Shown here: piece by piece, positions 793 through 16,478 of the stretch
Numbering within the stretch: position 1 is the first letter of the stretch
Layout of the letters: every line of letters starts with the position of its first letter
Virus record (IMG/VR): IMGVR_UViG_2802429235_000005
Span: 1-16,478 of that record
From: a virus
Lineage: Duplodnaviria; Heunggongvirae; Uroviricota; Caudoviricetes
Direction: 5' to 3' (one strand)
Length of the DNA: 16,478 bases
Program-made: the position numbers and the translations under genes
Notes under the pieces: model-generated
The model's database searches: none
Seen by the model: the letters and a program-made list of their open reading frames with translations, nothing else
Told to the model about the DNA's origin: nothing

Positions 793-801
793 AGCCCGGC
801 G
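781..801. terminator. GC-rich hairpin between convergent genes (8-bp perfect stem cgccgggc/gcccggcg, 5-nt loop); likely intrinsic terminator for the plus-strand gene
   Basis: Perfect inverted repeat 781-788/794-801 followed on the plus strand by tgatttatt (U-rich). Contains the stop codon of the 1-792 ORF. Lies just past the stop (808-806) of the last minus-strand gene. Confidence 0.55.
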
Positions 802-805
802 TGAT

Positions 806-1261
806 TTATTGCTGGTATTGCCAACTGCTGACTAAAGCGTACAAGTGGTTTGGAGAATAGCGCCAGCTTTCCTTCAGTTGCAGAAATTCAGCACAAAATT
901 CACTGCAAAACAGGCGATCGCGCTGTTCTTTATTACCGGTAATAATTCCTAATGCTCCGCGCCAGTCATATTTCTTGCCATCATGTTTACGGAAAAAAGT
1001 TTCCACATCCTGAAGGCTGGCCTGGAGCGGCAGCATATCCCACTTATCCGCTGGCAATGGCATTATCTTTCCGCGTACACCGCGATCGCGCAGTGATGCA
1101 GAGTAACAAAGGTAACTCTTTTCACCATGCGCCACGGCTAATTCACAGTGGGAATAACTACCGTGTGTGATTTTACGGGTAAGCCAGTCAGCCAGTCGGG
1201 CAATACCACGGTGCTCTGTTCGGCCCTTATAACAAGCGAGCCAGACAGTGGTTTTACTCAT
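806..1261 (-). CDS. Hypothetical cargo protein; possible permuted NlpC/P60-type (YaeF/YiiX-like) Cys/His hydrolase
   Basis: 151-aa ORF whose ATG (1261-1259) overlaps the TGA of the upstream fibre chaperone (ATGA coupling). Motifs 'GSYSHCELAV' (S-H) and 'LFCSEFCAEF' (C-S-E) occur in the His-then-Cys order seen in permuted papain-fold amidases. Family assignment is by eye only. Confidence 0.5.
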   Translation of the reverse strand: MSKTTVWLACYKGRTEHRGIARLADWLTRKITHGSYSHCELAVAHGEKSYLCYSASLRDRGVRGKIMPLPADKWDMLPLQASLQDVETFFRKHDGKKYDWRGALGIITGNKEQRDRLFCSEFCAEFLQLKESWRYSPNHLYALVSSWQYQQ

Positions 1262-1965
1262 GGTTGCCAGCCTGTGGAGTAATCGTAGTCGAGCACCGCC
1301 TGAATATCGTCCAGAGCTTCCACCGCCGCGATATGACGCTGGGCGTTGGCGAACAGGCGCATATCGTGATCCATTGTTACCGATTCAAACTGAGCGGCGA
1401 TTTCGTTGGTTAACTCAATCAGACCGTTATTTTTAGTTTTCCACATTAAACCTGGAAGGATTTTTTTCTCCGCTCCCATTTTAGTGAGCGAGAGCTGTTG
1501 GATACGGCTATTTGTATCACTGTGGAAATGATGGTTGTTGATGATGATGTAATCGGTTGTGATGGCATCGCGTTGATTTTTGATTGCAGAGTATTTCGCC
1601 TCTTTAGCATCAGTTATGGATGGTTGCCATTTTTCACCATCCCAACGTTCAAAAGAACCTGTTGGGGAAATGATGGTGACAGTTTCAGGTAATTGGCCCA
1701 ATTCTTGAGTAATAAGCTGGCTACCATCAACTTTGTTATAAACAGTTTGCCCGCGATGATCTTCAATGAGCTCCCATTTTTCATTCACCCAAACAGGAGT
1801 AAAACCTGAAACCTTTTCGGGTGGTGAATTTAATGTGCAATGATTTGGCAAACCTGTATTAGGTGCAATGTATGCATCAGACTCACCGATATATTCTTGG
1901 GTGTCTTGTGAAAAGTTATAAACAGTCAGTATTTGAGCTTCATCGGAAAATGTAAAAGTATTCAT
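1258..1965 (-). CDS. Tail fibre assembly chaperone (P2 gpG / Mu gpU functional analogue)
   Basis: 235-aa ORF immediately downstream of the tail fibre gene with ATGA overlap (fibre stop 1964-1962, ATG 1965-1963). Position and size are typical for a fibre chaperone. Sequence looks more AT-rich than the baseplate genes. Confidence 0.6.
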
Positions 1966-3542
1966 GCTAGCCTCACAATATAATTGAATGCGATATTTTT
2001 AACGGTGTTTTCGGTATTGCCGGTATTATTAATGGTTATAGAGTGGTTATGGGCCCCAAGTGCAATTGAATGTGAATGGGTGCCGAGAGTAACAGTGTGC
2101 GAATGGGAACCAATTGTAATACTATGAGCGTGTGATGGAACATTAATAGCCAAAGATGATCCGGTACCAGGGCCATATGATGTCCAGTCGCCTTGGCCCT
2201 CTGGTGAAGATGTCCCTGTTCTTACTGTTGCAGTTGCCGAGCCTGAGCCAGATGAACTTGTTTTTTTATTACCATAGTTAAATGCTGATGTAGTTTTAGT
2301 ACCCAAGTCTGTTAAAACTGTGGTTTTCGTCCCTAAATCAGTATTCGAAATACTACCCGTATGGTTGTGCGATTTAACCCCATCCAGTTCAGTAGATAAT
2401 ATATTACGCCCACTGCTGGGTTTCCCTTTAATTATCCATCCACGCATATCAGGAATAACGCCAGATGGATATGCAATTGCCAGTTTGGGATATGAGGCTT
2501 TATTAAATGTCTGACCTGTCATCAGGGCGTAGCCAGAAGGTACAGAATCAGACGGCCAGGGAATAGGCATCCCTACAGGACAGCTTTCCGCAGCAATAGC
2601 CTTATCCATCGCTGCCTTAACCGCATTTGGTGTTGCAGCTTCCGTCGTACTGGTGCTGTTGGTCGCATTATTAAGCTTCACGACCCCTTTTTGTGTCAGC
2701 GTACTGTCGGGGATACCTGTTATTTGCCCCCAGGCATGGGTATGGCTGGCAGGTGCCGCAGCATTGGCCTTATCCATTGCGGCCTTAACCGCACTTGGCG
2801 TTGCAGCTTCCGCCGTACTGGTGCTATTTGTCGTGTTGTTAAGTTTAACGATCCCTTTCTGCGTCAGCGTACCGTCAGGGATACCAGTAATCTGATTCCA
2901 GGCATGAGTATGACTAGTGGCGGCTTTACTATTTGCCAGGTCATATGCCGCTTTTACCGCTTTTGGCGTGGCCGCTTTGGTTTCATCATCGCTATTGGTC
3001 GCATTACTCAGCAGCGTAAAACCTTTCTGCGTCAGCGTCGCATCAGGATGATTCCGTGATTGTTGATGTTCTTTCAGCGTTTCATCGACATATTCTCTGG
3101 TTGCTATAACGACTGAAGGGTCGATCAAAAGCGTCACCGCGTCAGCATTGGTCACTTCCATAACTGCGCGAATAACAATTTGCTTACTGGCACCCGCAGG
3201 TAATAGCGGTTTATAGGTTTCCGGAAATTTGCCAATAGCAACTAGTGTGCCGTCAGCATCCAGTAGCCCAACCTCGCGGACGTACCAGCCACCTACTTGT
3301 TCAGGAATAATCGTCTCTGCGATAACCCAGGCTGGATTATCAGGCGCAATTTTTAAGGTATTTAGTTGCCCACGCCAGACTTCATGCACAACTTTGGTTT
3401 GACTTTCTGTCGGCTCGACATAATGACCATTGCCATCGCCGACCACCATAGTTTGTAGGCGGATCTGTTTTTGCTCCGCCAGCGCAGAGGCAATTTTTGA
3501 TTTGCCTGCGGTGGTTAATATTGTAAAAAATTCACTTGCCAT
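1962..3542 (-). CDS. Tail fibre protein (P2 gpH-like N-terminal anchor, central tandem repeats, C-terminal HxH-rich tip)
   Basis: 526 aa. N-terminus '[37 protein letters not shown]...EVWRGQL' resembles the conserved P2 gpH-type fibre N-terminus. Three ~56-aa tandem repeats ('TLTQKG..L.NATNS...AATP.AVKAA.D.A'). C-terminal '[35 protein letters not shown]'. Confidence 0.9.
2583..3044 (-). repeat. In-frame tandem repeats (about 168 nt, 2.75 copies) inside the tail fibre gene
   Basis: Protein residues 167-320 form three consecutive copies of the same motif. The same periodicity shows up in the antisense plus-strand ORF 2653-2895 ('[14 protein letters not shown] ... [15 protein letters not shown]'). 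Confidence 0.85.
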
Positions 3543-3544
3543 AC

Positions 3545-4261
3545 TTACTCCGGGTATACAGACATAATTTCGGTACTCCAGTATCCTGTGCCGACATGAA
3601 TCGGTTGGGATTGTGTAATGCGATCAGGTTGATACGGAAAGAGATTTATGTATTCCTCAACACAGTAACCTGTCGCTAAAAATAGTGTCGATGACTGCCA
3701 AATACTCTCCGCAATAGGGGGTAATACAGTAATAACCTCCCCACCCTGGATTGCGCTGCCAATAACTGGCATTTGACTTTGGTTAATAAGCCAGATGGTA
3801 ATGCTTTCAAGTTTTGAACGAACATTTTTATATTCGTGAATTAATGCGATAAGTGCATTAAATTCATCTTCATTTAATCCTTTTTCCTCTAGTGTAATAT
3901 CAACCTTAAAAAAATAAGCCTTCCCCCCATATTCAAACCATTCTGAAATAGTTCCTGGTAGCGAAAGTATTTCCAGCACCCGCCGTACCGCCCAAATCGT
4001 TCCTTTATATTTATGCAGCTCAATGGCTTGCTTAATTAACTCGCGCTTCTCCCGTTCATCAGTGGTAAATAACCAACCTTCCAGCCCCTGAACGTGAAAT
4101 TGTTCTGCAAGCGTAGGCAAAGCCGAAGCATCAACCAGGTCTACCAGATAAACCATCAACGCCGTCAGATCGAGTTGGGCAAAACGCTCGGCAGCGATAT
4201 TTGCCAGAGTTGAAAAACGCTCATCGCTGGCAAGCGGCGGTGGCGGCAGCAATTTATCCAT
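3545..4261 (-). CDS. Baseplate protein, P2 gpI-like (Mu gp48 position)
   Basis: Sits between the gpJ-like and fibre genes. Internal '[26 protein letters not shown]' block and C-terminal '...GGEVITVLP' match the gpI pattern. ORF track start 4276 is TTG; ATG at 4261 has a GGAG 6 nt upstream, so 4261 is preferred. Stop TAA 3547-3545. Confidence 0.7.
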
Positions 4262-5369
4262 CGCTGACTCCGGCAATCGTGACGTCTATCGCGGTGCATT
4301 CCGCCCACTCATGCGCCTGCAAAATACGTTTTGTAGGCATATTCAGCGCAACGTCATAAACACCATCGACTTGTAACACTTTGATTATCTGGTTTGGCAC
4401 AATGTCCTGTCCCAGATGTGTTTGGCGCTGTTGCGTCCAGAGGCTAATCGCTTTATGCGCCTCAGCCAGCGTTGTTTCCTGATCGGCGGTGGTAAACAGC
4501 GTGAGCTGCGCACGGATCTCATACGGCACCCTAACGGCGCATTTCGCACTTACTTTGTCGGTCAGCGGACGTTTTTTCTCCTTGCTAACCTCCAGTTCAA
4601 TTTGCGCGAGCAGTTCCACGCCCGGCAGACCATTCAGCGTTAGCGGGTAGATCTCCACGCAGCCTTCTGGTAATCCTTCGTCCGGCCCCAGTACCGCGAC
4701 GTCAATAATCGACTGGCTTACGGAAAGCGTATGAAAGCGGTAGGCACCATAGCTGCCCGCATTGCTGAAACTTTCCGGCGCCAGTTGGATCCGCTGGCGT
4801 AGTGCGTCATCGCTCTCTTCACCGCAGCCGCCGGTTGAGGCCGTCAGGTTGGTCACGCTGATATCGTAATAACCAATCCTGTCAACAAGGGCGCTAATCT
4901 GTGCAGGCTGCCAGCCATTGCCCGCTTCGCCTGTTGCCAGACTGGTGGCGGGAACGGCGATATGCAAACTTCCCGCCGGAATCAGAACATCTTCATCGGT
5001 AGCAAACATCACGCTGTCAGAGGCGCTGGCACGTGTTCCTTGTGGAATTAGAATGTTATTTCGATTCTTACTGGCTACCGAAAACTGCAACGTGGTTTTT
5101 GCCGGTTGTGCAGGTAAGCGGTGAACGCCCACCAGCTCACCTAAATAATCCAGCATTGGCGCGCGGGAATACGCGACCAGATTCTGTTTCGCCGCTTCCT
5201 GAATGGCGATGCGTACAAGGTTTTCACGATAGGCAAAAAGGTCAATCAGCAACCGCTCGGCCTGTGCCGGGTAGAGCTTTTTGCCGCTGGCATCTTCATA
5301 CTGCGCAATCATCTCGCTGGTAATTTGCGCAGGATCGCGGTCAATAAAATCGGGTTCGGCTATCGCCAT
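4254..5369 (-). CDS. Baseplate wedge protein, P2 gpJ-like (Baseplate_J family)
   Basis: 371 aa. ATG 5369 preceded by GGAGGTG. Overlaps the gpW end by 10 nt and the gpI start by 8 nt. Conserved gene order W-J-I. Confidence 0.8.
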   Translation of the reverse strand: MAIAEPDFIDRDPAQITSEMIAQYEDASGKKLYPAQAERLLIDLFAYRENLVRIAIQEAAKQNLVAYSRAPMLDYLGELVGVHRLPAQPAKTTLQFSVASKNRNNILIPQGTRASASDSVMFATDEDVLIPAGSLHIAVPATSLATGEAGNGWQPAQISALVDRIGYYDISVTNLTASTGGCGEESDDALRQRIQLAPESFSNAGSYGAYRFHTLSVSQSIIDVAVLGPDEGLPEGCVEIYPLTLNGLPGVELLAQIELEVSKEKKRPLTDKVSAKCAVRVPYEIRAQLTLFTTADQETTLAEAHKAISLWTQQRQTHLGQDIVPNQIIKVLQVDGVYDVALNMPTKRILQAHEWAECTAIDVTIAGVSDG

Positions 5370-5719
5370 AACACCTCCGTTGAGTTGATTACGCCGTCAG
5401 CGGCGCGCCATTGCACACGTAACGTCAGATGTTCCCCGTCGATTACCGGTGTCACCTTCAGCAACCGGCAGCGCGGTTCCCACTGGCGGATGGCCTCTAC
5501 CGACTCCCTTACCACATGCGGAATCGCCCGCTCGATGGGATAATCGATGTAGTGCCACAAGTTGCTGCCAAACAGCGGTCTGTGGGGATCACTGCCGCGC
5601 GGTGTGCGCAGAATGATGTGTATTGCCTGGTGAATATCATCCAGTCCGCAGACGTATTCTTCAGGCCGCTGCAAGGCTGGTTGCCAGTGCAGCGTAGAGG
5701 GGCGTGTTGTCGTGTTCAT
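5360..5719 (-). CDS. Baseplate protein, P2 gpW / T4 gp25-like
   Basis: 119-aa ORF directly upstream of the gpJ-like gene. Size and the 'LFGSNLWHYIDYP' region fit the gpW/gp25 family. Confidence 0.75.
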   Translation of the reverse strand: MNTTTRPSTLHWQPALQRPEEYVCGLDDIHQAIHIILRTPRGSDPHRPLFGSNLWHYIDYPIERAIPHVVRESVEAIRQWEPRCRLLKVTPVIDGEHLTLRVQWRAADGVINSTEVLWR

Positions 5720-5780
5720 GAGGGTATTTTCGCCCTGAACAGGCGGCGGGGATATTAAAGCGATTTAAAAAACTGATTGA

Positions 5781-5812
5781 TTAAAAAGAGAAAACCCGCC
5801 ATCAGGCGGGTT
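5781..5812 (-). terminator. Intrinsic terminator-like hairpin plus U-tract between the gpV-like and gpW-like genes
   Basis: Minus-strand RNA reads TGA-cguuu-AACCCGCC-ugau-GGCGGGUU-UUCUCUUUUUAA: 8-bp GC-rich stem (plus-strand 5793-5800/5805-5812), 4-nt loop, then a U-rich run. Confidence 0.55.
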
Positions 5813-5817
5813 AAACG

Positions 5818-6519
5818 TCAGTGTGAATGGTGGTTGGAGTTGCCACCGCTGTCCTGCAATGTGCCGCTGGCCTGAACGTTACCAATCACATTAACATTGC
5901 CAGTTATCGTGGCGGCGTTGCCGATGCCTCCACTTCCTGCCATGCCACCAAGCCAGGTGAGTTTTTTCATCACTGTGACGTTGCCGGTAAAGGTGCTCAT
6001 GGGCGCATCTACCGTCACTGCTGCCGCTTTAACATCGACCTTACTGGCTTCAATGCTGACATCGGTGGCTTTCACATCAACAGTGTCGGAAGTCACGGTG
6101 ACGTGTTGGGCTTTAACCTCAACGTTGGGCGATGTCAGGCTGGTACGGTCAATAACCTCAATCACGATTTTTTCGATGCCACCATTAATCGTAAGCTGGT
6201 GGGTGCTGCGGTCATATTCAAACGCTGCGCCATCAGAAAACTGGACATAGCGTTTGTCGCGCGATGCTACTGGCGCGGTATCTACCGTTGAATATACTGC
6301 GCCCAGCACCACGCCATCTTCACCGTTATCATCCAGCAGAACTTCCACCTGTTCGCCCATATCCGGTAGCCAGTAATCCTTATTGTCCTGAGAATTGCGC
6401 TGCAGCACCGCAAGCCAGTTACTCTTCAGATTGTCACACTCTGGTAGCGTGACCCGCACCCGAACGCTGGTTTCGTCAATATCGCTGATAATCCCCGTTT
6501 GCCGGGTTACTCCTTTCAT
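5818..6519 (-). CDS. Baseplate hub/spike protein, P2 gpV-like
   Basis: 233 aa. 'DYWLPDMGEQVEVLL' and 'QFSDGAAFEYD' match gpV-type motifs. Followed by V/T-rich beta-helix-like periodic repeats and a His-rich C-terminal tip 'NSNHHSH'. AGGAGG upstream of ATG 6519. Confidence 0.8.
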   Translation of the reverse strand: MKGVTRQTGIISDIDETSVRVRVTLPECDNLKSNWLAVLQRNSQDNKDYWLPDMGEQVEVLLDDNGEDGVVLGAVYSTVDTAPVASRDKRYVQFSDGAAFEYDRSTHQLTINGGIEKIVIEVIDRTSLTSPNVEVKAQHVTVTSDTVDVKATDVSIEASKVDVKAAAVTVDAPMSTFTGNVTVMKKLTWLGGMAGSGGIGNAATITGNVNVIGNVQASGTLQDSGGNSNHHSH

Positions 6520-6528
6520 ATTGCCTCC

Positions 6529-7569
6529 TTACTGGCTGGTCGCTGGCCCGCGTGAAACGTCGATTTCAGTGGTATAGCCGCTGCGCACAAAACTGTGAGT
6601 AGATTTATCAATCAGCCACTGACCGGAAAGCACACCAAAATCGGTTAGCTCGATTTTATTGCCTGCCGTCAGTTCCGGGCAGCCCATCATCCTGAGCGTT
6701 CCGGTTTGTTGATATTCGTTGTGGCTGTCGAGCGCGGCGTTGGCCTTTGCCTGCGCCGCGCCAACGTCCGGCGCCCGACTGTTCAGTTTCAGCGTGTCGG
6801 CACTGGTGCCGACTCCACGGGCAGACGGCTTTTGCTGGCTGTCGTGAGTGTAGATAACCAGTTCTTTTTTCTTACTATTTTGATGCTGTACGGTGGCGTT
6901 TTTGTAGATGCGGTTAATGGTATCTTTGAAGGTGAAATGCGAAACGTCTTTGCGGTCGATCTTTTTCACCGGCGCCAGGCAGCGCAGCGTGGGTAAATGC
7001 GAAAAAATCAGCTCTTTGGTGGTCACCTTTACCGCATAGCCATATTCGCTGGCCAGGCGCTTGAGAAATCCGACATCGGTTTCGCCGTACTGTGTCACCC
7101 GGTCAATCGTCAGCGGCTCGATTTTGCCCACCAGCGTCAGGCCGTGAGTTTGCGCGATACGGCTGGCGATGGCTGAAAGCGTTGTCTCTTCAAAGCCCTG
7201 ACTGTTACGGGTGCGCAGCGCCTGATTGACGGAAGTGGCGATGCCATCAATATTTACCGTGGAAGGTGGTGCTGAAATGTCAATTTTATCAATGATATAT
7301 TGACCACAATCGAGCAGTTTTTCCCCCTGATAACCTATGTGCAGCGCCAGCGTATCGCCTTTGCCGGGATACCACTCTTTTATCCAGCGTCCATCGGTGT
7401 CATCCAGTGTGATCGCGATGGTATCCGACTCGTTTTTAATACTGTCCTGGTAACTGATGCTGGTGACATAAGGCGTGATGTCATAAGTGATATCTTTATG
7501 CCCATACCACAGGGTAAAAATGGGCGCGAGCGTGGCAAAGACGCCGCCAGTTACGCTTATCTCAGCCAT
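6529..7569 (-). CDS. Tail protein, P2 gpD-like (late control D family)
   Basis: 346-aa ORF between the gpX-like and gpV-like genes. Start ATG 7569 overlaps the gpX-like end by 13 nt. Size and position fit gpD / Mu P. Confidence 0.75.
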   Translation of the reverse strand: MAEISVTGGVFATLAPIFTLWYGHKDITYDITPYVTSISYQDSIKNESDTIAITLDDTDGRWIKEWYPGKGDTLALHIGYQGEKLLDCGQYIIDKIDISAPPSTVNIDGIATSVNQALRTRNSQGFEETTLSAIASRIAQTHGLTLVGKIEPLTIDRVTQYGETDVGFLKRLASEYGYAVKVTTKELIFSHLPTLRCLAPVKKIDRKDVSHFTFKDTINRIYKNATVQHQNSKKKELVIYTHDSQQKPSARGVGTSADTLKLNSRAPDVGAAQAKANAALDSHNEYQQTGTLRMMGCPELTAGNKIELTDFGVLSGQWLIDKSTHSFVRSGYTTEIDVSRGPATSQ

Positions 7570-7766
7570 GGTGGGATCTCCGATACGGTCTTGTTGACGG
7601 TAATGACCGGAATAATGAGCTGAATACCGGCAGGCAGTACCGGATAAATGGCGACATGTGGATTGGCGGCGATAATGCGTTCATAAGCCAGTGCATCACC
7701 GTAGTAATGCCATGCCAGGTTATCCCAGCGTTCGCCGTCGGTGGTGATATGTTCAAGGTATCGCAT
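7557..7766 (-). CDS. Tail protein X, P2 gpX-like (LysM-like)
   Basis: 69 aa. 'TTDGERWDNLAWHYYGDALAYERIIAANPHV' follows the gpX pattern (G-D-x-LD ... YYG ... ANP). TAATG overlap with the upstream gene. Confidence 0.7.
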   Translation of the reverse strand: MRYLEHITTDGERWDNLAWHYYGDALAYERIIAANPHVAIYPVLPAGIQLIIPVITVNKTVSEIPPWLR

Positions 7767-11079: not shown

Positions 11080-11171
11080 AATTGTTTCTCTTTAAATATT
11101 GATAATGGCCCGCTGGTTATTTTTCTAAAAAAAAGGGGCAGGGAAGAAATAAACCTGACGGGCTTGGAAAA

Positions 11172-11194
11172 CTCGCAGACATCAGGTCTGCGAG
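11172..11194 (-). promoter_or_regulatory. 9-bp-stem hairpin in the chaperone / tape-measure intergenic region
   Basis: Plus strand ctcgcagac-atcag-gtctgcgag. On the minus strand it is followed by UUUUCC (weak U-tract). It contains the stop of a +1-frame ORF that overlaps the chaperone gene end. Confidence 0.35.
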
Positions 11195-11269
11195 TCATAT
11201 TCGATTTTTATTTGGGCGTTGGCTTCATCCAGCCAGTTGCTAAAGTCATCGACGGTAAGGGCGTCTATC

Positions 11270-11587
11270 TCACTGGGCGGAAAGCGAAACCATCTTGCCA
11301 GTAACGCCATCGCTTGCCATAACAGTGGCAGATTCTGTAGCCACGCTAAGCATGGATTGAAATCGTTTCTGCAATGCCTGGTAATCCAGCAAATCCATTT
11401 CAGCTAAATCTTCTGGCACCAGTCCGGTCATTGCAGCCATTAGCGGTTCATCCCATTCTTCTGGTTTTTCGCTGATCCGGCGCGCGTTGCGCATATCTTT
11501 TACTTTCAGGCGACGTAATTGCAGAGTGTTAATTACGTCTCCCGCCGCTGAAGTAAACGGGAACTGTAAGGTATAATGTTCTTTCAT
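11270..11587 (-). CDS. Tail assembly chaperone (P2 gpE-like position)
   Basis: 105-aa ORF between the tube and tape-measure genes. AGGA 7 nt upstream of ATG 11587. Position is the conserved chaperone slot; no canonical -1 slippery heptamer found. Confidence 0.5.
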   Translation of the reverse strand: MKEHYTLQFPFTSAAGDVINTLQLRRLKVKDMRNARRISEKPEEWDEPLMAAMTGLVPEDLAEMDLLDYQALQKRFQSMLSVATESATVMASDGVTGKMVSLSAQ

Positions 11588-11615
11588 TTTGTATCCTTAT
11601 TGGTCATGCGGAAAT

Positions 11616-11631
11616 CGGGGCCGTAGCCCCG
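11616..11631 (-). promoter_or_regulatory. GC hairpin between the tube and chaperone genes (possible attenuator)
   Basis: cggggc-cgta-gccccg, a 6-bp perfect GC stem with 4-nt loop, 7 nt after the tube stop and not followed by a strong U-tract. Confidence 0.4.
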
Positions 11632-11637
11632 AATAAC

Positions 11638-12162
11638 TTAGCCACCGATGTTATTGCGATAGGTACTTAATTGATCCACGCCGTTAACGCGGAAAATATT
11701 CGCCAGGTAATCCAGTTCCAGTAGTGTTTCACCATCGACCACCTGTTTAATATAGGTACAACCAAAGGCGCTGCTGAATTCCGGGTTTTCATTCTGTTTA
11801 AATGTTCCCAATGGATTCTTTTTAAACATAACAGTCAAATGAGTGACTAACGCTAATTGATTCGCTTTCCCCTGGGAGTTATAGCAATCAATACTGGAGC
11901 GGCACTGTAATGCTACCGCCTGCCACGGGTTTGCCGTTTTACGCATGACGTCCTGATAAAAGGAGTTCCATTTAATTTCCCCTTCCAGTTTATCGAAACC
12001 TGCCGGGAGTTCGATTTTGCCGACCATGCCCAGTGCTTTATGCTCCTGCATAATTAAACTGACATCCGGTAATTTAATTTCGGTTGCACGACCTAAAAGG
12101 TTATTACCATCGAGATAAATATTGGCATTGGTAATACGGTTAATTTGAATTTTTCCAGCCAT
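11638..12162 (-). CDS. Tail tube protein (P2 FII-like)
   Basis: 174 aa. N-terminal 'IYLDGNNLLGRATEIKLP' and C-terminal 'VDGETLLELDYLANIFRVNGVDQL' match the FII tube pattern. TAATG overlap with the sheath gene. Confidence 0.8.
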   Translation of the reverse strand: MAGKIQINRITNANIYLDGNNLLGRATEIKLPDVSLIMQEHKALGMVGKIELPAGFDKLEGEIKWNSFYQDVMRKTANPWQAVALQCRSSIDCYNSQGKANQLALVTHLTVMFKKNPLGTFKQNENPEFSSAFGCTYIKQVVDGETLLELDYLANIFRVNGVDQLSTYRNNIGG

Positions 12163-13586
12163 TAGCTATTGCTCTCCAGAGAGACTAAATATTCAGAGGT
12201 AATTTCAGTTTCAAACGTCAGACGTTCCAGCGGCGGTGGCGGGGTGAATTTATAGCTCAGCAATAAATGCCCGGCACTGAGTTCGGTCGGTGAATTTCGC
12301 GCCGGATCGTACCAGCACTCAAAGCCAAGCAGTGCGCCGTCGGCAATCAGCTTACGGCCCCAGGTATTTACCGACTCGGTCAGGGCATCAATTAGCGCCT
12401 GATTAATCGGCATATCGATATACTGCTGGCTGAAATAACGGATCGACTCGTTAATCACATCACCCGTGCGGCGAACGTTTTCAAAGTTACGCATATGGGT
12501 CACGGTTGGCCATGCCGCAGTGCGGTTGCCCCATAAACGCAGACCAGAGCCGTAACTATTGAAAACTGTGGTAATGCCGTTTTCGTTGAGCTGATTCACT
12601 TCACTTTGCGGGTCATCAACCATTGCGGAAAGTGAACGTTCGATACCGATAATGCCCTGAATTTCCTGGTTTGAGTTGCTCCACCAGAAACCTTTCTCCA
12701 GGTCTACTTTGGCACGCAGTCCGGCAGCGCGTGAAGAGAGCGGTTCGAGAACTTCCTGGTTGGTTGCGCCGTCATAAACTTTGACGTGCGGATAGCACAA
12801 ACGCGCACGGTCAGAACTGGTGTTGAAGTTGATTGCGCCTTTCGAGCCGCGACCAGCCAGCACCTGCTGGAATGTAGTACCGATTGGGGCGTCAATGTAG
12901 GCGATAGCACCGAGTTTTTCCGCCTGAGCAATCAGTTCGGTGGTGACCGATTTTTGCGTACAGAAAACGGGAGCAAGCAGGATTTTGGCGTAGAAACCAT
13001 ACAGGTTATAGGTATCCTGTAGCAGTTTCATCCCAGTGCGATCGCCTGCGGTATTAACGGCGCCAATAATATCGGCTGCGGTAACTTTTGTTGGATCGGC
13101 CCATGAGTAATAGGCACAAACTTTCGCTCCGGCAGGGATCTCAGTCTCTGCACGAGTGATTATTCCTGTTTGTTCATCAACATGAAACGCTGTGCTGCTA
13201 TACGTAGTGGCTGATGTTGAAGAGGGTTTCAGGACGACATTACGCACCGCACGATGAGCCAGTTTTGCCTGGTTGTTGGAATCAAAAGTGATACTCTCAT
13301 TGCTGATGCTGGAGCCATGTTTTGCCGGATCCAGTACGTTAATCACCACCACCGTACCGGCGCCGTGGTCATAAATCGCCTTCAGCGCCTGCGGGATAGT
13401 AAAGTTAGCCTGAGTCGAGCCAAACTGCGCGGCATCGCTTTCAGAAAGGCACAATGTTGGTTTGTTTACCGGACCGCATGGTGCACTACCGATTAAAGCG
13501 ATTACAGCGGATTTTACCGCTTTAACCGGGCGCGGACCGGTTTCAATTTCAATGGTTTCTACACCGTGCAGGTAATTAGCTGCCAT
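12162..13586 (-). CDS. Contractile tail sheath protein (P2 FI / Mu L-like)
   Basis: 474-aa ORF directly upstream of the tube gene. ATG at 13586 preceded by AGAGGAAA; the ORF-track start 13592 is a TTG two codons earlier. Confidence 0.85.
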   Translation of the reverse strand: MAANYLHGVETIEIETGPRPVKAVKSAVIALIGSAPCGPVNKPTLCLSESDAAQFGSTQANFTIPQALKAIYDHGAGTVVVINVLDPAKHGSSISNESITFDSNNQAKLAHRAVRNVVLKPSSTSATTYSSTAFHVDEQTGIITRAETEIPAGAKVCAYYSWADPTKVTAADIIGAVNTAGDRTGMKLLQDTYNLYGFYAKILLAPVFCTQKSVTTELIAQAEKLGAIAYIDAPIGTTFQQVLAGRGSKGAINFNTSSDRARLCYPHVKVYDGATNQEVLEPLSSRAAGLRAKVDLEKGFWWSNSNQEIQGIIGIERSLSAMVDDPQSEVNQLNENGITTVFNSYGSGLRLWGNRTAAWPTVTHMRNFENVRRTGDVINESIRYFSQQYIDMPINQALIDALTESVNTWGRKLIADGALLGFECWYDPARNSPTELSAGHLLLSYKFTPPPPLERLTFETEITSEYLVSLESNS

Positions 13587-13773
13587 GTACAATTTCCTCT
13601 CCGTTATTTTGTTCTTCCTGAGTGATGACAGGAGTCAGGTGATTGCGGGCAATCATGGTCATAACCCACTCGTTTTCTTCTGGCAGATCAATTTCACTGT
13701 TCGGCCACAATAAGATTTCTTGTCCGTCGGCAAGGGTGACGCCGCTTGCCGGGCCGTTGTAGATGTATTTCAT
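13576..13773 (-). CDS. Small conserved-position protein (Mu gp38-like slot), function unknown
   Basis: 65-aa ORF. ATGA overlap with the upstream gene and 11-nt overlap with the sheath start, so it is translationally coupled on both sides. Confidence 0.5.
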   Translation of the reverse strand: MKYIYNGPASGVTLADGQEILLWPNSEIDLPEENEWVMTMIARNHLTPVITQEEQNNGEEIVHGS

Positions 13774-14225
13774 TCAGTTTCCTCGTAATTAACTTCAGTA
13801 AGCAGGGTAAGGTCCGTGCTTTCCCGTTTTGCGATAAACAGCGATCTGGTCGCCATTTCCAGGATGTAGCGGCAGAAACCACCGCTCTCGCCTGCATTGA
13901 TTTCTGTTTCAAGCCAAAGAAGACGCTCGCAATCAGGAAGCTGGATCCCCCCCAATGCGCTGCGTATGCGATCCAGTGCGTTTAACGCGCCACAATTTTT
14001 GCCAACAATAACGGTGGCAGTTAAACGGAGCGTTTGCTGTTGCACGAGGGCATCACTGCTTTCAGGCATGGCAAATAGAGAACCGCTATAATTAATAATC
14101 ACTGTAACTTTCTGCGTCTGCGGAATATATTTATTGGCATCAACCGATGAAATAAATACGTCCATTTCGGGATTCTGTTCACGTAATCTGGTCACAACAG
14201 AATTAATTACAGATAAAATTTCCAT
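13770..14225 (-). CDS. Tail-associated protein (Mu gp37-like slot), possibly tail completion/terminator
   Basis: 151-aa ORF, first gene after the lysis-cassette terminator. AAGGAA 8 nt upstream of ATG 14225. Function inferred from position only. Confidence 0.5.
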   Translation of the reverse strand: MEILSVINSVVTRLREQNPEMDVFISSVDANKYIPQTQKVTVIINYSGSLFAMPESSDALVQQQTLRLTATVIVGKNCGALNALDRIRSALGGIQLPDCERLLWLETEINAGESGGFCRYILEMATRSLFIAKRESTDLTLLTEVNYEETE

Positions 14226-14330
14226 ATAGGGTGTTCCTTAATTACTGCTCACTTCGTTATCGTTGAAATGTATTCTGAAGCAGTGAAGGTGAAGAATCTT
14301 TTAATGTGATTTAGAGAAAAAATTGAATGG

Positions 14331-14366
14331 CTATAAAAATCCCCACACTTACGTAAAGGTGGGGAT
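14331..14366 (-). terminator. Intrinsic terminator after the lysis cassette
   Basis: Minus-strand RNA has stem AUCCCCAC / GUGGGGAU (plus-strand 14339-14346 / 14359-14366) with an internally palindromic loop, followed by UUUUUAU. Begins about 5 nt after the spanin-like stop. Confidence 0.6.
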
Positions 14367-14370
14367 GTAT

Positions 14371-14685
14371 TTAATAGCTGCCACGTTGTAATAGCTCTAT
14401 TTTGCTATATAAGGCATCCAGCTTTGCTTCTAATACTGCCTGGCCACGAAGATAATCTTCTCTGCGGACATAATGCAGCGGAAGCTCGGCACGAAATTCG
14501 AGAAATTCTCTTTCCAGTTTCGACCAGCTTGTTTCTGATTCCCGGCGCGCGTTTTCCAGAGATTCAAAACGCTCATTAAGTCTTTTTTCAATTTGCGCTA
14601 ACAGCAATTTTCCGGCAGCAAACATTAATCCAACGAAGGAAAGCATAAGGGAGATCACTTCCCAAAAATCGATACTGAGTTTCAT
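14371..14685 (-). CDS. Lysis accessory protein, Rz-like i-spanin candidate (N-terminal TM helix plus coiled coil)
   Basis: 104 aa. 'VISLMLSFVGLMFAAG' transmembrane segment followed by a charged heptad-rich region. Immediately downstream of the lysozyme gene; GAGGGG upstream of the ATG. Confidence 0.45.
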   Translation of the reverse strand: MKLSIDFWEVISLMLSFVGLMFAAGKLLLAQIEKRLNERFESLENARRESETSWSKLEREFLEFRAELPLHYVRREDYLRGQAVLEAKLDALYSKIELLQRGSY

Positions 14686-14697
14686 CGGCCCCTCTGA

Positions 14698-15303
14698 TTA
14701 GTGAAGACAGCTTGCCTGCCCCCAGAGTAAGTAGCGGGCGGCATGTTGATAGAGGATCATCTTCGGATAGTGACGATTTTCTCGCCAGTTTGCGGCACTA
14801 CGCCCGGCGTTGACGTGCTCAACATGACCAAACCAGATGGTGGCATCTAACCCTTTGGATGCGGCCAGTTTTTTATCCCGATTAACCCATCCCTGACCAC
14901 CGTTATAGGCGCTTAGGGTAAACGCCATACGCTGGCAGCCATTTTTCGCCGAGATGTTTTTCCACAAATGCTGGTCATATTGCACCAATGCGCGAATCGC
15001 CCAGGTTGGGTTATAGGGCTTGTTTTCACGTAGCTGTGGATACAACTGGCTTATCCATGTCGCTGTGGCAGGCATAAATTGCGCCATACCCTGTGCGCCG
15101 ACGGGGGAACGCGCCATTGGCTGCCAGGCTGATTCCTGGTGCAACTGCCCGGCGAAGTCTGCCACCGGGGCGTTCAGTCCCCAGACTTCTCGTGCAGTTC
15201 GAATCAGTTCGTTTCGCCATGCCAGAGATGCTCGCGGCGGTTCAGATGCGTTAAGCGGGAAGAACGCGAACAGAGTAATTAGCGCGAGAAATTTTACCTG
15301 CAT
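14698..15303 (-). CDS. Lytic transglycosylase (SLT family) with N-terminal signal sequence; endolysin candidate
   Basis: 'QESAWQPMARSPVGAQGMAQFMPATA' matches the SLT catalytic motif (E-S ... G-A-x-G-x-M-Q-x-M-P-x-T-A) and 'LSAYNGG' the AYNxG motif. N-terminus 'MQVKFLALITLFAFFPLNA/SE' from ATG 15303 (AGGA 7 nt upstream). The ORF-track 5' extension to 15402 is rejected. Confidence 0.8.
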   Translation of the reverse strand: MQVKFLALITLFAFFPLNASEPPRASLAWRNELIRTAREVWGLNAPVADFAGQLHQESAWQPMARSPVGAQGMAQFMPATATWISQLYPQLRENKPYNPTWAIRALVQYDQHLWKNISAKNGCQRMAFTLSAYNGGQGWVNRDKKLAASKGLDATIWFGHVEHVNAGRSAANWRENRHYPKMILYQHAARYLLWGQASCLH

Positions 15304-15305
15304 CA

Positions 15306-15593
15306 CTAAAGTCCTAACGCGACGGAAAGGCAGACGGCTGCAACGATGATAGCCCGACGAATCATTGCCGCCGCGCAGCATCGCGCCTCTTCCCAGGGGC
15401 AAAATGAGTCAGGCCGCGCCCAGGGAAACAGACTGCGATCGAGCCAGTATCCCAGCACAGCGGCGAGCGAAACCAGACTTAGTTTATAAATGACAACCGG
15501 GATCTGTGCGGAAGATGTACAGCCGATCGCGACAAACAGCGCGACGGAAGCGACCAGCCAGCCGGAAAGACGGGGAAAAGTGACTTTTTTCAT
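15306..15593 (-). CDS. Holin-like small membrane protein
   Basis: 95-aa ORF with AGGAG 7 nt upstream of ATG 15593. Two or three hydrophobic segments. Immediately precedes the lysozyme gene (stop TAG 15308-15306, lysozyme ATG 15303). Confidence 0.5.
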   Translation of the reverse strand: MKKVTFPRLSGWLVASVALFVAIGCTSSAQIPVVIYKLSLVSLAAVLGYWLDRSLFPWARPDSFCPWEEARCCAAAMIRRAIIVAAVCLSVALGL

Positions 15594-15889
15594 ACGATAT
15601 CTCCTGATAAGTGAGCGTTTAGTGTCGCCAGATCCCTCCAGTGAAGAATGAAAAAAGCTTTAATAAATAACTTTAAAAAATAGATCCTCTATAAATGAAC
15701 ATGCTTGCTAATAAATCCACCCATTAATAAAAGAGCAAAAGGTGTCCTGGAGAATAAGCGCGTCATTATGCAGGGAAAAGAGGATGGTGAATCGTAGGAA
15801 TAGCCCATAGTCATTTGATTTTTAAAGTTTGTTTAAGAAAGTCAGCGACTGTGAGGGAAACGATCTTTTTACACTACAGGTAAAAATAA

Positions 15890-15909
15890 TACTGTATGCA
15901 CATACAGTA
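15890..15909. promoter_or_regulatory. LexA (SOS) operator, near-consensus
   Basis: TACTGTATGCACATACAGTA: CTGT-N8-ACAG palindrome matching the enterobacterial consensus TACTGTATATATATACAGTA at about 17/20 positions. Located in the divergent control region. Confidence 0.7.
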
Positions 15910-15930
15910 TCGTGTAAAATGATACTCCAG

Positions 15931-15961
15931 TTGACAAGAAACATAACGCAAACAATATATT
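15931..15961 (+). promoter_or_regulatory. Candidate sigma-70 promoter directed toward the Mor-like gene
   Basis: Perfect -35 TTGACA (15931-15936) followed 17-19 bp later by an A/T-rich -10-like AATATA/TATATT (15954-15961). Gives a roughly 170-nt leader before ATG 16131. Confidence 0.35.
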
Positions 15962-16130
15962 TATTTTGTGAATTTATGACGTTCATTAATATTAAAAATT
16001 TATATTTTTGGTGATTGTTTATTTGTTTGTTGAATGTATTGAGTAGCAGTAATGACAACTGCTTAGCGTATATCCGTGGTTTTACACGCATCGGGTCTTA
16101 TACAGGATGCAAGATATATGGAGATGAAAA

Positions 16131-16478
16131 ATGATACGAAAATCAAAAGAGATGGCCCGGACACCGGAGATCATTAACGACCTGGCGTTTCATGCATCGC
16201 AAGTTCTGATTGAGAGCATCAATCTCGACAGTTCATCGGCGGAAAATGTGGGCTTTGCCATTGCCGACCGAATGATGCGTAACTGGGGTGGGCAAAGCAT
16301 TTATTTCCCGAAAGGGATCTCCGGACGGGCGTCGGAGCGTGACTACCAAATCTATAGCGAGTGCGATGGTCGCAACTACGCCGAATTAGCGAAGAAATAT
16401 AATCTGACGTTGCAATGGATTTATAAGATAGTGAAACGCGTACATGCGGAAAAGCAACAGCGCCGTAGTAATTCGTAA
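16131..16478 (+). CDS. Mor/C-family transcriptional activator (phage Mu middle/late activator family)
   Basis: 115 aa. 'NWGGQSIYFPKG' and C-terminal 'DGRNYAELAKKYNLTLQWIYKIVKR' (HTH) fit the Mor/C pattern. GGAG 7 nt upstream of the ATG. Divergent from the lysis/tail cluster. Confidence 0.65.
   Translation: MIRKSKEMARTPEIINDLAFHASQVLIESINLDSSSAENVGFAIADRMMRNWGGQSIYFPKGISGRASERDYQIYSECDGRNYAELAKKYNLTLQWIYKIVKRVHAEKQQRRSNS

What the first reader, a model, noticed from the sequence alone, without database searches (positions are those of the whole stretch)
806..16478. Headless lysis-plus-tail cluster under LexA and Mor control: candidate R-type tailocin
In this single transcriptional direction the lysis cassette is followed, after one terminator and 145 nt, by a complete contractile tail gene set with intact reading frames and tight coupling. 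There are no capsid, portal, protease, terminase, replication or integrase genes where a Mu- or P2-like phage would carry them. The order sheath-tube-chaperone-TMP-U-X-D-V-W-J-I-H-G in one block is the contiguous arrangement seen in pyocin and Mu-type tail modules rather than P2's split layout. Together with an SOS operator and a dedicated activator, this is the architecture of phage tail-like bacteriocins. R-pyocins, carotovoricin and a Mu-derived Pseudomonas syringae tailocin are precedents.
Basis: partly seen in the sequence, partly recalled or inferred. Interest (0 to 1): 0.8.

Follow-up and report, generated by a model that had tools for sequence, protein, structure and literature searches.

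The report
Headless SOS-wired phage-tail (tailocin) gene cluster
This is a phage-derived gene cluster that has kept only a contractile tail, a cell-lysis cassette and one activator, sits beside the housekeeping gene lysC in Escherichia, Salmonella and related genera, and most likely makes a DNA-damage-induced killing particle related to carotovoricin of Pectobacterium.

Summary
On the minus strand, 806-15593 encodes a holin, an SLT endolysin and a membrane protein. A terminator and a 145-nt gap follow, then 17 tightly coupled contractile-tail genes. A complete Mor-family gene lies divergently at 16131-16478, and a perfect 20-bp LexA box lies in the spacer.

A 99.98%-identical scaffold and E. 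coli genomes show lysC about 54 nt beyond mor and yjbD/rluF on the other side. There are no head, terminase, transposase or integrase genes.

The tail is of the BcepMu type (Mu-like transposable phages with P2-like tails). Compared with BcepMu, the island lacks the head block, Rz/Rz1 and the whole early region.

The same island sits beside lysC in Salmonella (LT2 STM4198-4219), Superficieibacter, Phytobacter and Dryocola. All genes are intact, with dN/dS of 0.01-0.24. The LexA box is conserved in all seven loci and absent from the related phages.

Late-promoter motifs shared with BcepMu-type phages precede the holin gene and gp37.

The closest known system is carotovoricin, described as a 'Mu-type tailocin' (sheath 75-76% identical). 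I found no paper that describes this locus as a tailocin.

Verdict: a new member of a known kind. Particle production and killing are untested.

The parts
16131..16478 (+). mor: Mor/C-family late transcription activator, 115 aa, complete
   Evidence: PF08765 E=7e-38. PHROG 532 'late transcriptional activator'. 49% identical to BcepMu gp1. 82-90% identical in Salmonella, Superficieibacter, Phytobacter and Dryocola.
15890..15909 (.). LexA (SOS) operator, a perfect 20-bp palindrome TACTGTATGCACATACAGTA
   Evidence: 0 of 200 shuffles. A near-consensus box lies at the same place in all 7 orthologous loci. It is absent from BcepMu, PhiKM, the Pectobacterium clusters and the Brenneria/Lelliottia clusters.
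15891..15920 (.). Promoter-like hexamers overlapping the LexA box. Toward holin: -35 TTTACA (15918-15913) and -10 TACAGT (15896-15891). Toward mor: -10 TAAAAT (15915-15920).
   Evidence: Promoter scan gives 9/12 for the minus-strand site. The 10-mer CATTTTACAC next to the box is nearly invariant: identical in six of the seven loci and differing at two positions in Dryocola. The direction of firing is not resolved.
15815..15836 (-). Late-promoter-type motif CTTAAACAAACTTTAAAAATCA ('block 3'), a possible extra Mor site
   Evidence: Motif scan. Conserved in Escherichia, Salmonella and Phytobacter. Its role is unknown.
15621..15677 (-). Putative Mor-dependent lysis promoter: TTTAAAGTTATTTATTAAAG (15677-15658) ... 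ATTCTTCAC ... GACACT (15626-15621)
   Evidence: Invariant block in 7 genera, 65-85 nt upstream of the holin ATG. Unique in the window. It occupies the same position as the TTAAAC-N4-TTTAAAATC motif upstream of holin in PhiKM, BcepMu, Lelliottia, Brenneria and the Pectobacterium clusters.
15306..15593 (-). Holin (95 aa)
   Evidence: PF13272 E=1.6e-28. PHROG 1528 holin E=6e-37.
14698..15303 (-). SLT-domain lytic transglycosylase endolysin (201 aa) with a hydrophobic N-terminal signal or SAR-like segment
   Evidence: PF01464 and PHROG 669 endolysin. N-terminus MQVKFLALITLFAFFPLNAS. 52% identical to BcepMu gp22.
14371..14685 (-). gp25-like membrane protein (104 aa: N-terminal TM segment plus coiled coil), a lysis accessory of unknown role
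   Evidence: PHROG 462 E=6e-34. 46% identical to BcepMu gp25. Sequence.
14333..14366 (-). Intrinsic terminator after the lysis genes (hairpin 14366-14339 plus T-run)
   Evidence: -15.5 kcal/mol, z = -3.6. The stem is kept by compensatory changes in Salmonella, Superficieibacter and Phytobacter.
14270..14314 (-). Putative Mor-dependent tail promoter: CTAAATCACATTAAAAG ... ATTCTTCAC ... GAATAC
   Evidence: ATTAAAAG and AATAC are invariant in 7 loci. The same motif precedes the head-protease gene in the complete phage PhiKM (5041) and in the Pantoea stewartii prophage L029 (6344), and precedes gp37 in the other headless clusters.
13770..14225 (-). Gp37-family protein (151 aa), probable tail terminator
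   Evidence: PF09646 E=3e-33. PDB 2GJV (= STM4215) E=3e-53. The tail-terminator role is from my memory of the literature.
13576..13773 (-). gp38-like 65-aa tail protein
   Evidence: PHROG 895 E=1e-34. 45% identical to BcepMu gp38.
12162..13586 (-). Tail sheath (474 aa)
   Evidence: PF04984 and PF17482. 72% identical to BcepMu gp39 and 75% to phage PhiKM.
11638..12162 (-). Tail tube
   Evidence: PF04985 E=5e-56.
11183..11587 (-). Tail assembly chaperone (gpE-like, 11270-11587) with an overlapping out-of-frame extension ORF (about 11183-11311)
   Evidence: PF10109. The open +1-frame extension is seen. A 42-aa overlapping ORF is called in L082, L083 and L085. No slippery site was identified.
8719..11079 (-). 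Tape measure protein (786 aa)
   Evidence: PF10145.
7766..8719 (-). gpU-like tail protein with a C-terminal coiled-coil extension (317 aa)
   Evidence: PF06995 E=6e-34. PHROG 788 E=2e-128.
7557..7766 (-). Tail protein X
   Evidence: PF05489 E=2e-23.
6529..7569 (-). gpD baseplate hub
   Evidence: PF05954.
5818..6519 (-). gpV spike
   Evidence: PF04717.
5757..5812 (-). V-W spacer: terminator-like hairpin (5812-5793) and a late-promoter-like motif TTTTTTAAATCGCTTTAATAT (5777-5757)
   Evidence: The motif is conserved in PhiKM and BcepMu. Salmonella carries gtrABC inserted in this spacer.
5360..5719 (-). gpW/gp25 baseplate wedge
   Evidence: PF04965.
4254..5369 (-). gpJ baseplate
   Evidence: PF04865 E=4e-63.
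3545..4261 (-). gpI baseplate / fibre attachment
   Evidence: PF09684 E=1e-33. Called as 238 aa in L080.
1962..3542 (-). Tail fibre (526 aa)
   Evidence: PF12571, PF03406 and PF07484. The C-terminal part is swapped between closely related contigs, with fibres of 386-586 aa.
1258..1965 (-). Tail fibre assembly protein
   Evidence: PF02413 and PF14301. PHROG 1807.
806..1261 (-). 151-aa protein of unknown function, last gene of the operon (STM4198 orthologue)
   Evidence: PHROG 1128 E=8e-58. No Pfam, NCBIfam or PDB match. 78% identical in Salmonella.
779..803 (.). Bidirectional terminator marking the left boundary of the island
   Evidence: Homology with E. coli genomes that lack the island ends right after this hairpin.

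Best explanation
The cluster is a domesticated remnant of a BcepMu-type (Mu-like transposable, P2-like-tailed) prophage. It has been reduced to three modules: a lysis cassette, a complete contractile tail, and the late activator Mor. It is fixed next to lysC.

Proposed mechanism:
1. In undamaged cells, host LexA sits on the single operator between the divergent mor and lysis genes (operator shown; binding inferred).
2. DNA damage leads to LexA cleavage and mor transcription (inferred).
3. Mor activates phage-type late promoters. One lies upstream of the holin gene and one in the 145-nt gap upstream of gp37, and there is possibly a third upstream of gpW (motifs shown and conserved; activation inferred).
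4. Tails assemble without heads. The holin, the exported SLT endolysin and the gp25-like protein lyse the producer and release DNA-free contractile particles (inferred).
5. The particles bind related bacteria through a swappable tail fibre and kill by membrane puncture, as R-type tailocins do (inferred by homology to carotovoricin).

In short, it works like carotovoricin, with host LexA taking the place of a dedicated repressor.
For: Gene content and order match BcepMu minus three blocks: gp26-gp36 (the head block), Rz/Rz1, and the early region.

The host genes lysC and yjbD/rluF abut the island in a 99.98%-identical scaffold and in E. coli. The boundaries were mapped against an E. coli genome that lacks the island.

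The same architecture sits at the same lysC-pgi locus in Salmonella (LT2 STM4198-4219), two Superficieibacter species, Phytobacter and Dryocola.

All 20 genes are intact. dN/dS is 0.01-0.24 while dS is saturated between genera. Flanking housekeeping genes show comparable dS.

The LexA box is conserved in 7 of 7 class-A loci. It is absent from the related phages and from the other headless clusters.

The late-promoter motif is shared with BcepMu-type phages. It lies upstream of holin. The promoter that precedes the head-protease gene in complete phages here precedes gp37 directly.

Fibre and assembly-protein cassettes differ among contigs that share an identical gpD.

The sheath is 75-76% identical to the conserved headless Pectobacterium cluster. 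That cluster matches published descriptions of carotovoricin as a 'Mu-type tailocin' related to the Mu-like prophage ECA41 (PMC13566846; PMC11974492).
Against: No experiment is available: no particles, no killing and no induction data were found for this locus.

No Rz/Rz1 spanin or other lipoprotein ORF is present, so outer-membrane disruption and release are unexplained.

By consensus scoring, the better promoter overlapping the LexA box points toward the lysis genes (9/12), not toward mor. The LexA-to-Mor wiring is therefore an inference from logic.

The island is patchy in E. coli (188 of 5426 complete genomes). In one complete genome (CP057804.1) gp37 and gpU were not called, so some copies may be decaying.
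Confidence: 0.7

Rival explanations
1. It is an inert, decaying prophage remnant. The tail and lysis genes are leftovers with no present function and are not expressed as particles.
For: The island is present in only 188 of 5426 complete E. coli genomes. RefSeq marks the fibre gene as a pseudogene in strain 20. gp37 and gpU were not called in CP057804.1. The spanin is missing. No functional report was found.
Against: All 20 ORFs are intact in six genera, with dN/dS of 0.01-0.24 at saturated dS. A host-type LexA operator is conserved in 7 of 7 class-A loci and is absent from the phage relatives. Promoter and terminator elements are conserved, with compensatory changes in the terminator stem. 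The fibre in strain 20 is in fact one uninterrupted ORF.
Confidence: 0.08
2. The cluster makes functional tail particles, or simply causes regulated lysis, for a purpose other than killing bacterial competitors. Possibilities are SOS-triggered explosive lysis that releases public goods or vesicles, action on non-bacterial targets, or supply of tails to a capsid-only element.
For: The killing function is inferred only by homology. The lysis cassette has its own promoter and terminator, so it could act separately. The 151-aa terminal gene has unknown function.
Against: There is no effector or toxin cargo gene and no AAA+ ATPase of the Afp/PVC type. The tape measure and fibre set are of phage/R-tailocin type. 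The head-joining adaptor gp36 is deleted, and the terminator-like gp37 is the fastest-evolving gene, which argues against joining to heads. Fibre-cassette swapping fits selection on bacterial surface receptors.
Confidence: 0.17
3. The window is one arm of a complete Mu-like or P2-like prophage whose head and packaging genes lie just outside it.
For: The window alone ends at the mor stop codon, so it could not exclude this.
Against: Scaffold L080 (99.98% identical) has lysC 54 nt after mor, and RlaP, yjbD, rluF, ccdA and pepE after the fibre end. E. coli strain 20 has only housekeeping genes for 16 kb on each side. There is no tRNA or integrase.
Confidence: 0.01

Closest known systems
Carotovoricin Er (Ctv) of Pectobacterium, an R-type 'Mu-type' tailocin
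   Same: It derives from the same phage lineage: the sheath is 75-76% and the tube about 76% identical to the conserved headless Pectobacterium cluster. The layout is the same, with holin, SLT and gp25-like genes followed directly by gp37, gp38, sheath and onward to the fibre. The promoter that precedes the head-protease gene in complete phages lies directly before gp37. The holin-upstream late-promoter motif is the same. Both are inducible by DNA damage according to the literature (PMC13566846, PMC11974492).
   Different: Carotovoricin keeps Rz/Rz1 and the window does not. The Pectobacterium loci have no mor within 10 kb upstream of the sheath gene and no LexA box there. From my memory of Liu et al. 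1994, not verified here, carotovoricin is controlled by RdgA/RdgB encoded elsewhere. The window has no fibre-inversion system. In the sheath+tube tree the two form separate clades, so head loss may have been independent. The left deletion endpoints also differ.
Burkholderia phage BcepMu and the Bcepmuvirus relatives (E. coli phage PhiKM, Klebsiella phage KP12)
   Same: Homologues are found for all lysis and tail genes tested (holin, SLT, gp25-like, gp37, gp38, sheath, tube), except that the tape measure gave no qualifying match in BcepMu (34% in PhiKM), and for mor, in the same order. Identities are sheath 72-75%, Mor 44-54% and holin 56-66%. The late-promoter motifs are shared.
   Different: These are complete transposable phages. 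They have transposase A/B, a repressor, terminase, portal, protease, capsid, the adaptor gp36 and Rz/Rz1, all of which the window lacks. They have no LexA box.
R-type pyocins of Pseudomonas aeruginosa (P2-related) and the Mu-derived R-syringacin of P. syringae
   Same: The concept is the same: a chromosomal, headless contractile-tail cluster with its own lysis genes, induced by DNA damage, with killing range set by the fibre.
   Different: The phage ancestry and gene order differ: R2 has the P2-like split order, whereas here the order sheath to D comes before V-W-J-I-H. Pyocins are regulated through PrtR/PrtN, not through a LexA box plus Mor. Pyocins encode spanin-like lysis genes (from my own knowledge).
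S. Typhimurium LT2 genes STM4198-STM4219 (annotated phage-tail genes; STM4215 structure PDB 2GJV)
   Same: It is the orthologous island at the same lysC locus, with 59-96% protein identity, the same LexA box and the same promoters.
   Different: The Salmonella copy carries gtrABC inserted between V and W and has a different fibre C-terminus. In the papers I could search it is treated only as a PCR marker or as a structural-genomics target, not as a tailocin.

Membership tests
R-type tailocin (phage tail-like bacteriocin) | Complete contractile-tail gene set: sheath, tube, chaperone, tape measure, hub, spike, wedge, fibre, fibre chaperone and terminator | tested here: met
   Pfam, PHROG and PDB matches for every component. 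All ORFs are intact.
R-type tailocin (phage tail-like bacteriocin) | No capsid, portal, terminase, replication/transposition or integration genes in or next to the cluster | tested here: met
   tblastn with BcepMu TerL, portal, MCP, gp36, TnpA/B and repressor found nothing in the window. The flanks are lysC and yjbD/rluF.
R-type tailocin (phage tail-like bacteriocin) | Own lysis cassette for release | tested here: inconclusive
   A holin, an SLT endolysin and a gp25-like protein are present. Spanin Rz/Rz1 is absent and no lipoprotein ORF was found.
R-type tailocin (phage tail-like bacteriocin) | Maintained by selection as a host trait, not decaying | tested here: met
   dN/dS is 0.01-0.24 in all genes across six genera. 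The chromosomal position is orthologous.
R-type tailocin (phage tail-like bacteriocin) | Stress (SOS) induction | tested here: inconclusive
   A conserved consensus LexA box lies between mor and the lysis genes. No expression data are available.
R-type tailocin (phage tail-like bacteriocin) | Production of DNA-free contractile particles that kill related strains | not testable with these tools
   This needs induction, EM and spot-killing assays.
Carotovoricin-type (BcepMu-derived, 'Mu-type') tailocins | Tail and lysis proteins homologous to the Pectobacterium carotovoricin cluster and to BcepMu-like prophages | tested here: met
   Identities to the Pectobacterium headless loci: sheath 75-76%, tube 76%, holin 55%, SLT 59-65%, gp25-like 65-67%. 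That these loci are carotovoricin is inferred from PMC13566846 and PMC11974492, not from the Ctv sequence itself.
Carotovoricin-type (BcepMu-derived, 'Mu-type') tailocins | Lysis genes joined to gp37 through the promoter that precedes the head-protease gene in complete phages | tested here: met
   The motif yTAAA-N5-ATTAAAAG lies upstream of gp37 in the window and in L016 and L046. It lies upstream of the protease gene in complete phages.
Carotovoricin-type (BcepMu-derived, 'Mu-type') tailocins | Rz/Rz1 spanin in the lysis cassette | tested here: not met
   An Rz homologue is present in all Pectobacterium loci and absent in the window and all class-A loci.
Carotovoricin-type (BcepMu-derived, 'Mu-type') tailocins | Invertible tail-fibre segment with a DNA invertase (from my knowledge of Ctv) | tested here: not met
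   The window has no invertase gene and no long inverted repeats around the fibre genes.
Complete Bcepmuvirus prophage | Transposase A/B, repressor and head morphogenesis genes | tested here: not met

The most novel reading that the evidence does not exclude
The lysC-adjacent island is an ancient tailocin locus, inherited largely vertically. It would have been domesticated before Escherichia, Salmonella, Superficieibacter, Phytobacter and Dryocola diverged. It was rewired from a phage repressor to the host LexA repressor while keeping the phage activator Mor, and it releases particles without a spanin. If so, workhorse strains such as S. Typhimurium LT2 (STM4198-4219) and many Escherichia strains carry an unrecognised SOS-inducible killing device. 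In Salmonella the gtrABC O-antigen-modifying operon embedded in the cluster might act as self-protection.
Probability: 0.45. Interest if true: 0.7.

Novelty: new member of a known kind. Interest (0 to 1): 0.55.

Why it matters
Tailocins shape strain-level competition and are being developed as precision antibacterials. For Escherichia and Salmonella, native R-type tailocins are essentially undescribed in the literature I could search.

This locus is widespread. It is found in E. coli, E. albertii, E. marmotae/E. ruysiae, S. enterica including LT2, and other Enterobacteriaceae. It is under strong purifying selection and carries swappable fibres, so it is a plausible determinant of gut strain competition after DNA-damaging stress such as antibiotics or inflammation.

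It also shows domestication in steps. The head block, the spanin and the early region were lost, the late activator was kept, and a host LexA operator is present that the phage relatives lack. A Lelliottia element that still has its transposase looks like an intermediate.

The hypothesis can be tested directly in standard genetic systems.

Tried and rejected
- Part of a larger prophage: rejected from the flanks.
- Same as the published 'ST131 tailocin' (PMC9205054): rejected. That element has the P2/R2-pyocin gene order and lies in a prophage.
- Kosakonicin (PMC6629978): the relationship could not be tested, because no sequence was in hand.
- The 89-aa ORF at 15822-16091(-): treated as spurious. 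It has no family match, spans the operator, and gene callers do not call it in L080-L085.
- A hidden spanin or lipoprotein ORF: none found. The only lipobox-like hit is the first TM segment of the holin itself.
- An invertible fibre segment: none.
- Rfam families and tRNA genes: none.
- Extra copies of the invariant holin-promoter block in the window: none at up to 3 mismatches. Only the looser late-promoter motif recurs.
- Link between Mor and RdgB of Pectobacterium: the homology search returned only close Mor relatives, and the 1994 and 1992 papers are not held. The link rests on my memory.
- PGAP's pseudogene call for the fibre in E. coli strain 20: not supported, because one uninterrupted ORF is present.
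- A single origin of all headless clusters: not supported by the sheath+tube NJ tree, but recombination could confound that tree.
- Source species: not among the GTDB representative genomes. Exact-protein look-ups point to E. ruysiae or E. marmotae.

Full report
**What is in the window**

Apart from a plus-strand RlaP-type nucleotidyltransferase gene (1-792) and a plus-strand Mor-family gene (16131-16478), the long ORFs lie on the minus strand.

Reading the minus strand from 15593, the genes come in this order:
- a holin (PF13272; PHROG 1528);
- an SLT lytic transglycosylase (PF01464; PHROG 669 'endolysin');
- a 104-aa protein with one TM segment and a coiled coil (PHROG 462);
- a 145-nt gap;
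- Gp37 (PF09646), a 65-aa protein (PHROG 895), sheath, tube, gpE-type chaperone, a 786-aa tape measure, a long gpU-like protein, and X, D, V, W, J and I;
- a 526-aa tail-collar fibre, a fibre-assembly protein and a 151-aa protein of unknown function.

Most neighbouring genes overlap by 1-23 nt.

The gap contains a hairpin of -15.5 kcal/mol (z = -3.6) followed by a T-run.

A perfect palindromic LexA box, TACTGTATGCACATACAGTA, lies at 15890-15909 in the 537-bp mor-holin spacer. The extended pattern was found in none of 200 shuffles.

**Is it really headless?**

The window ends at the mor stop codon, so flanks were needed.
- An ENA metagenome scaffold (L080) is 99.98% identical to the whole window. 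It shows lysC starting 54 nt beyond mor. On the other side it shows RlaP, a small ORF, yjbD, rluF, ccdA and pepE.
- E. coli strain 20 carries the island at 92% identity between yjbD/rluF and lysC, with only housekeeping genes for 16 kb on each side.
- Comparison with an E. coli genome that lacks the island places the left boundary right after the terminator at 779-803. It places the right boundary just before the lysC stop codon. That genome has a zeta-toxin gene in the slot instead.
- tblastn with BcepMu terminase, portal, capsid, adaptor, transposases and repressor finds nothing in the window.
- No tRNA gene is present.

**What it derives from**

The sheath is 72% identical to gp39 of Burkholderia phage BcepMu. 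It is 74-75% identical to the sheaths of E. coli phage PhiKM and Klebsiella phage KP12, all in or near the genus Bcepmuvirus.

BcepMu has this order: mor (gp1) and the early operon leftward; repressor; holin gp21; SLT gp22; Rz/Rz1 gp23/24; gp25; gp26; terminase; portal; F; G; protease; capsid; gp35; gp36; gp37; gp38; sheath; and on to the fibre.

The window is this genome minus three blocks:
- gp26-gp36, which is everything for heads and head-tail joining;
- Rz/Rz1;
- all early genes between mor and the holin gene.

Retention starts exactly at gp37. Its Salmonella orthologue STM4215 has a solved hexameric structure (PDB 2GJV). From memory, that structure was interpreted as a myophage tail terminator.

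**Conservation**

A scan of species-representative genomes with the sheath protein, followed by tblastn with marker proteins, gave three kinds of headless relatives and many complete prophages.

| Class | Layout | Where found |
|---|---|---|
| A | mor <-> holin-SLT-gp25L-gp37-...; no Rz | the window, E. coli, S. enterica (orthologues STM4198-STM4219 of LT2), two Superficieibacter species, Phytobacter massiliensis, Dryocola |
| B | headless with Rz; no mor nearby | 11 Pectobacterium species and Samsonia |
| C | headless, still carrying transposase A/B and mor | Lelliottia, Brenneria |

In every class-A locus mor abuts lysC-pgi.

For the 17 genes from mor through gpI, class-A orthologues are full length or nearly so (coverage 0.67-1.00) in all five loci compared. 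The only in-frame stop is one in the Phytobacter gpI alignment. The fibre aligns only over its N-terminal 42-61% outside E. coli, and the fibre-assembly protein and the 151-aa protein have orthologues only in E. coli and Salmonella. Where dS could be estimated, dN/dS was 0.01-0.24, apart from 0.36 for the 151-aa protein against E. coli. dS between genera is saturated at about 1-2. Flanking lysC, pgi, yjbD and rluF show similar dS.

This pattern fits long co-divergence with the host and maintained function. It does not fit decay.

gp37 is the outlier. It is 41-59% identical between genera, against 79-95% for sheath and tube, with dN/dS of about 0.2. Loss of its head-side partner would explain this.

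Among contigs that share an identical gpD, the fibre, gpI and fibre-assembly genes differ, with fibres of 386-586 aa. This is the usual signature of selection on receptor specificity.

Exact-protein look-ups name E. ruysiae, E. marmotae, E. albertii and E. coli. The window's flanks are 87-93% identical to E. coli, so the source is a non-coli Escherichia.

In E. coli, 188 of 5426 complete genomes carry at least 80% of the island.

**Regulation**

A near-consensus LexA box sits at the same place in all seven class-A loci. It is absent from BcepMu, PhiKM and the class-B and class-C loci. The box thus distinguishes class A from all the phage relatives and other headless clusters examined.

Next to it is a 10-mer, CATTTTACAC, that is identical in six of the seven loci and differs at two positions in Dryocola. 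This 10-mer can be read in two ways. It can be a -35 (TTTACA) for a promoter firing toward the holin gene, with the LexA half-site TACAGT as -10 (9/12). Or it can be a -10 (TAAAAT) for a promoter firing toward mor, with a weak -35 inside the box.

Sequence alone does not settle the direction. I favour LexA control of mor for three reasons. The island has no other regulator. Constitutive Mor would be lethal. Mor itself is under strong purifying selection.

A block invariant in all seven class-A loci, TTTAAAGTTATTTATTAAAG...ATTCTTCAC...GACACT, lies 65-85 nt upstream of the holin ATG. A related motif, TTAAAC-N4-TTTAAAATC, lies at the same position upstream of the holin gene in PhiKM, BcepMu, Lelliottia, Brenneria and Pectobacterium.

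In the 145-nt gap, after the terminator, all class-A loci keep TCTAAA-N5-ATTAAAAG...AATAC. The terminator stem is kept by compensatory changes.

In the complete phage PhiKM and in the Pantoea stewartii prophage (L029), this same motif lies in front of the head protease gene. In all headless clusters it lies directly in front of gp37.

A third, similar motif lies between V and W and is conserved in PhiKM and BcepMu.

By analogy with Mu, where Mor and C activate promoters that lack a -35 (my own knowledge), these are most likely Mor-dependent late promoters.

**Comparison with what is known**

The class-B Pectobacterium cluster fits published descriptions of carotovoricin:
- a defective prophage encoding a 'Mu-type tailocin', aligned to the Mu-like prophage ECA41 (PMC13566846);
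- present in 83% of Pectobacterium genomes and shown to make killing particles (PMC11974492);
- said to share ancestry with a Salmonella Typhi prophage (title of Yamada et al. 2006, cited there).

The window's sheath is 75-76% identical to it.

The window differs in four ways: it has no Rz/Rz1, no fibre invertase, mor in cis, and a LexA box.

In an NJ tree of sheath plus tube, class A groups with Lelliottia. The Pectobacterium clade is separate, and the headless Brenneria loci nest among complete Brenneria prophages. Head loss may therefore have happened more than once, although recombination could mislead this tree.

The 'ST131 tailocin' of PMC9205054 is a different, P2-ordered prophage.

Ten literature searches found no paper that treats the lysC-adjacent cluster of Escherichia or Salmonella as a tailocin. 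STM42xx genes appear only as PCR targets, in mutant screens, or as a structural-genomics protein. Subscription-only papers were not searchable.

**Verdict**

The element is best filed as a new, uncharacterised member of the BcepMu-derived ('Mu-type', carotovoricin-like) R-type tailocins.

Its distinctive features are direct LexA wiring, a retained Mor activator, loss of the spanin, and a fixed position next to lysC across several enterobacterial genera.

Headlessness, completeness, conservation and the regulatory sequence elements are shown. Induction, particle assembly, release and killing are inferred.

Noticed in passing
L079 11131-13966 (S. Infantis; LT2 STM4204-4206): In Salmonella the O-antigen glucosylation operon gtrABC is inserted inside the tail cluster, in the V-W spacer. 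In the window this spacer holds only a terminator and a promoter-like motif (5720-5817). It could protect the producer's LPS from its own particles.
   Followed up: no
window 13770-14225: The Gp37-family protein (orthologue of STM4215, PDB 2GJV) evolves much faster than its neighbours. It is 41-59% identical between genera, against 79-95% for sheath and tube, with dN/dS of about 0.2. This fits loss of its head-side partner gp36.
   Followed up: partly
window 14686-14697 (SLT/gp25-like junction): The Rz/Rz1 spanin genes lie between the SLT gene and gp25 in BcepMu, PhiKM and the Pectobacterium cluster. They are cleanly absent here, leaving 12 nt between the two genes. They are also absent in all class-A loci and in the Lelliottia element.
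   Followed up: partly
window 1-803; L001 14868-16792; L004 4828-5754: yjbD-lysC is a variable hotspot in E. coli. A slipin gene plus an RlaP nucleotidyltransferase gene occurs in about 1635 of 5426 genomes. A zeta-toxin family gene occupies the tail island's slot in strain cq9. The window's own genome has ccdA/ccdB-type genes between rluF and pepE.
   Followed up: partly
L007 (Lelliottia wanjuensis) 2850-9362: This is a headless, spanin-less BcepMu-type element that still carries mor and transposase A/B. It has no LexA box and is not next to lysC. It is sister to class A in the sheath+tube tree and looks like an intermediate stage of domestication.
   Followed up: partly
window 15815-15836: A second late-promoter-type motif (CTTAAACAAACTTTAAAAATCA) lies about 55 nt from the LexA box on the holin side, far upstream of the holin gene. 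It is conserved in Escherichia, Salmonella and Phytobacter, and its role is unknown. It might be a site for Mor autoregulation or a second lysis promoter.
   Followed up: no
window 5757-5777: The late-promoter-like motif in the V-W spacer lies only about 37 nt from the gpW start codon, here and in PhiKM and BcepMu. If it is a promoter, the gpW mRNA would have a very short leader or none.
   Followed up: no
phage-collection records OR845313, OR845311, OR845696 (E. coli O157:H7 ATCC 43895) and OR851066, OR851449, OR850955 (S. Kentucky): Short unannotated 'phage' records match parts of the cluster at 75-96% identity. One S. Kentucky fragment matches the C-terminal 195 residues of the sheath at 95.9% amino-acid identity. 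That is far above the 83% of S. Infantis and hints at exchange between genera.
   Followed up: no
L001 17962-19665: RefSeq annotates the tail fibre of E. coli strain 20 as two pseudogene fragments, but one uninterrupted ORF covers it. It is 93% identical to the window's fibre with no stop codons.
   Followed up: yes
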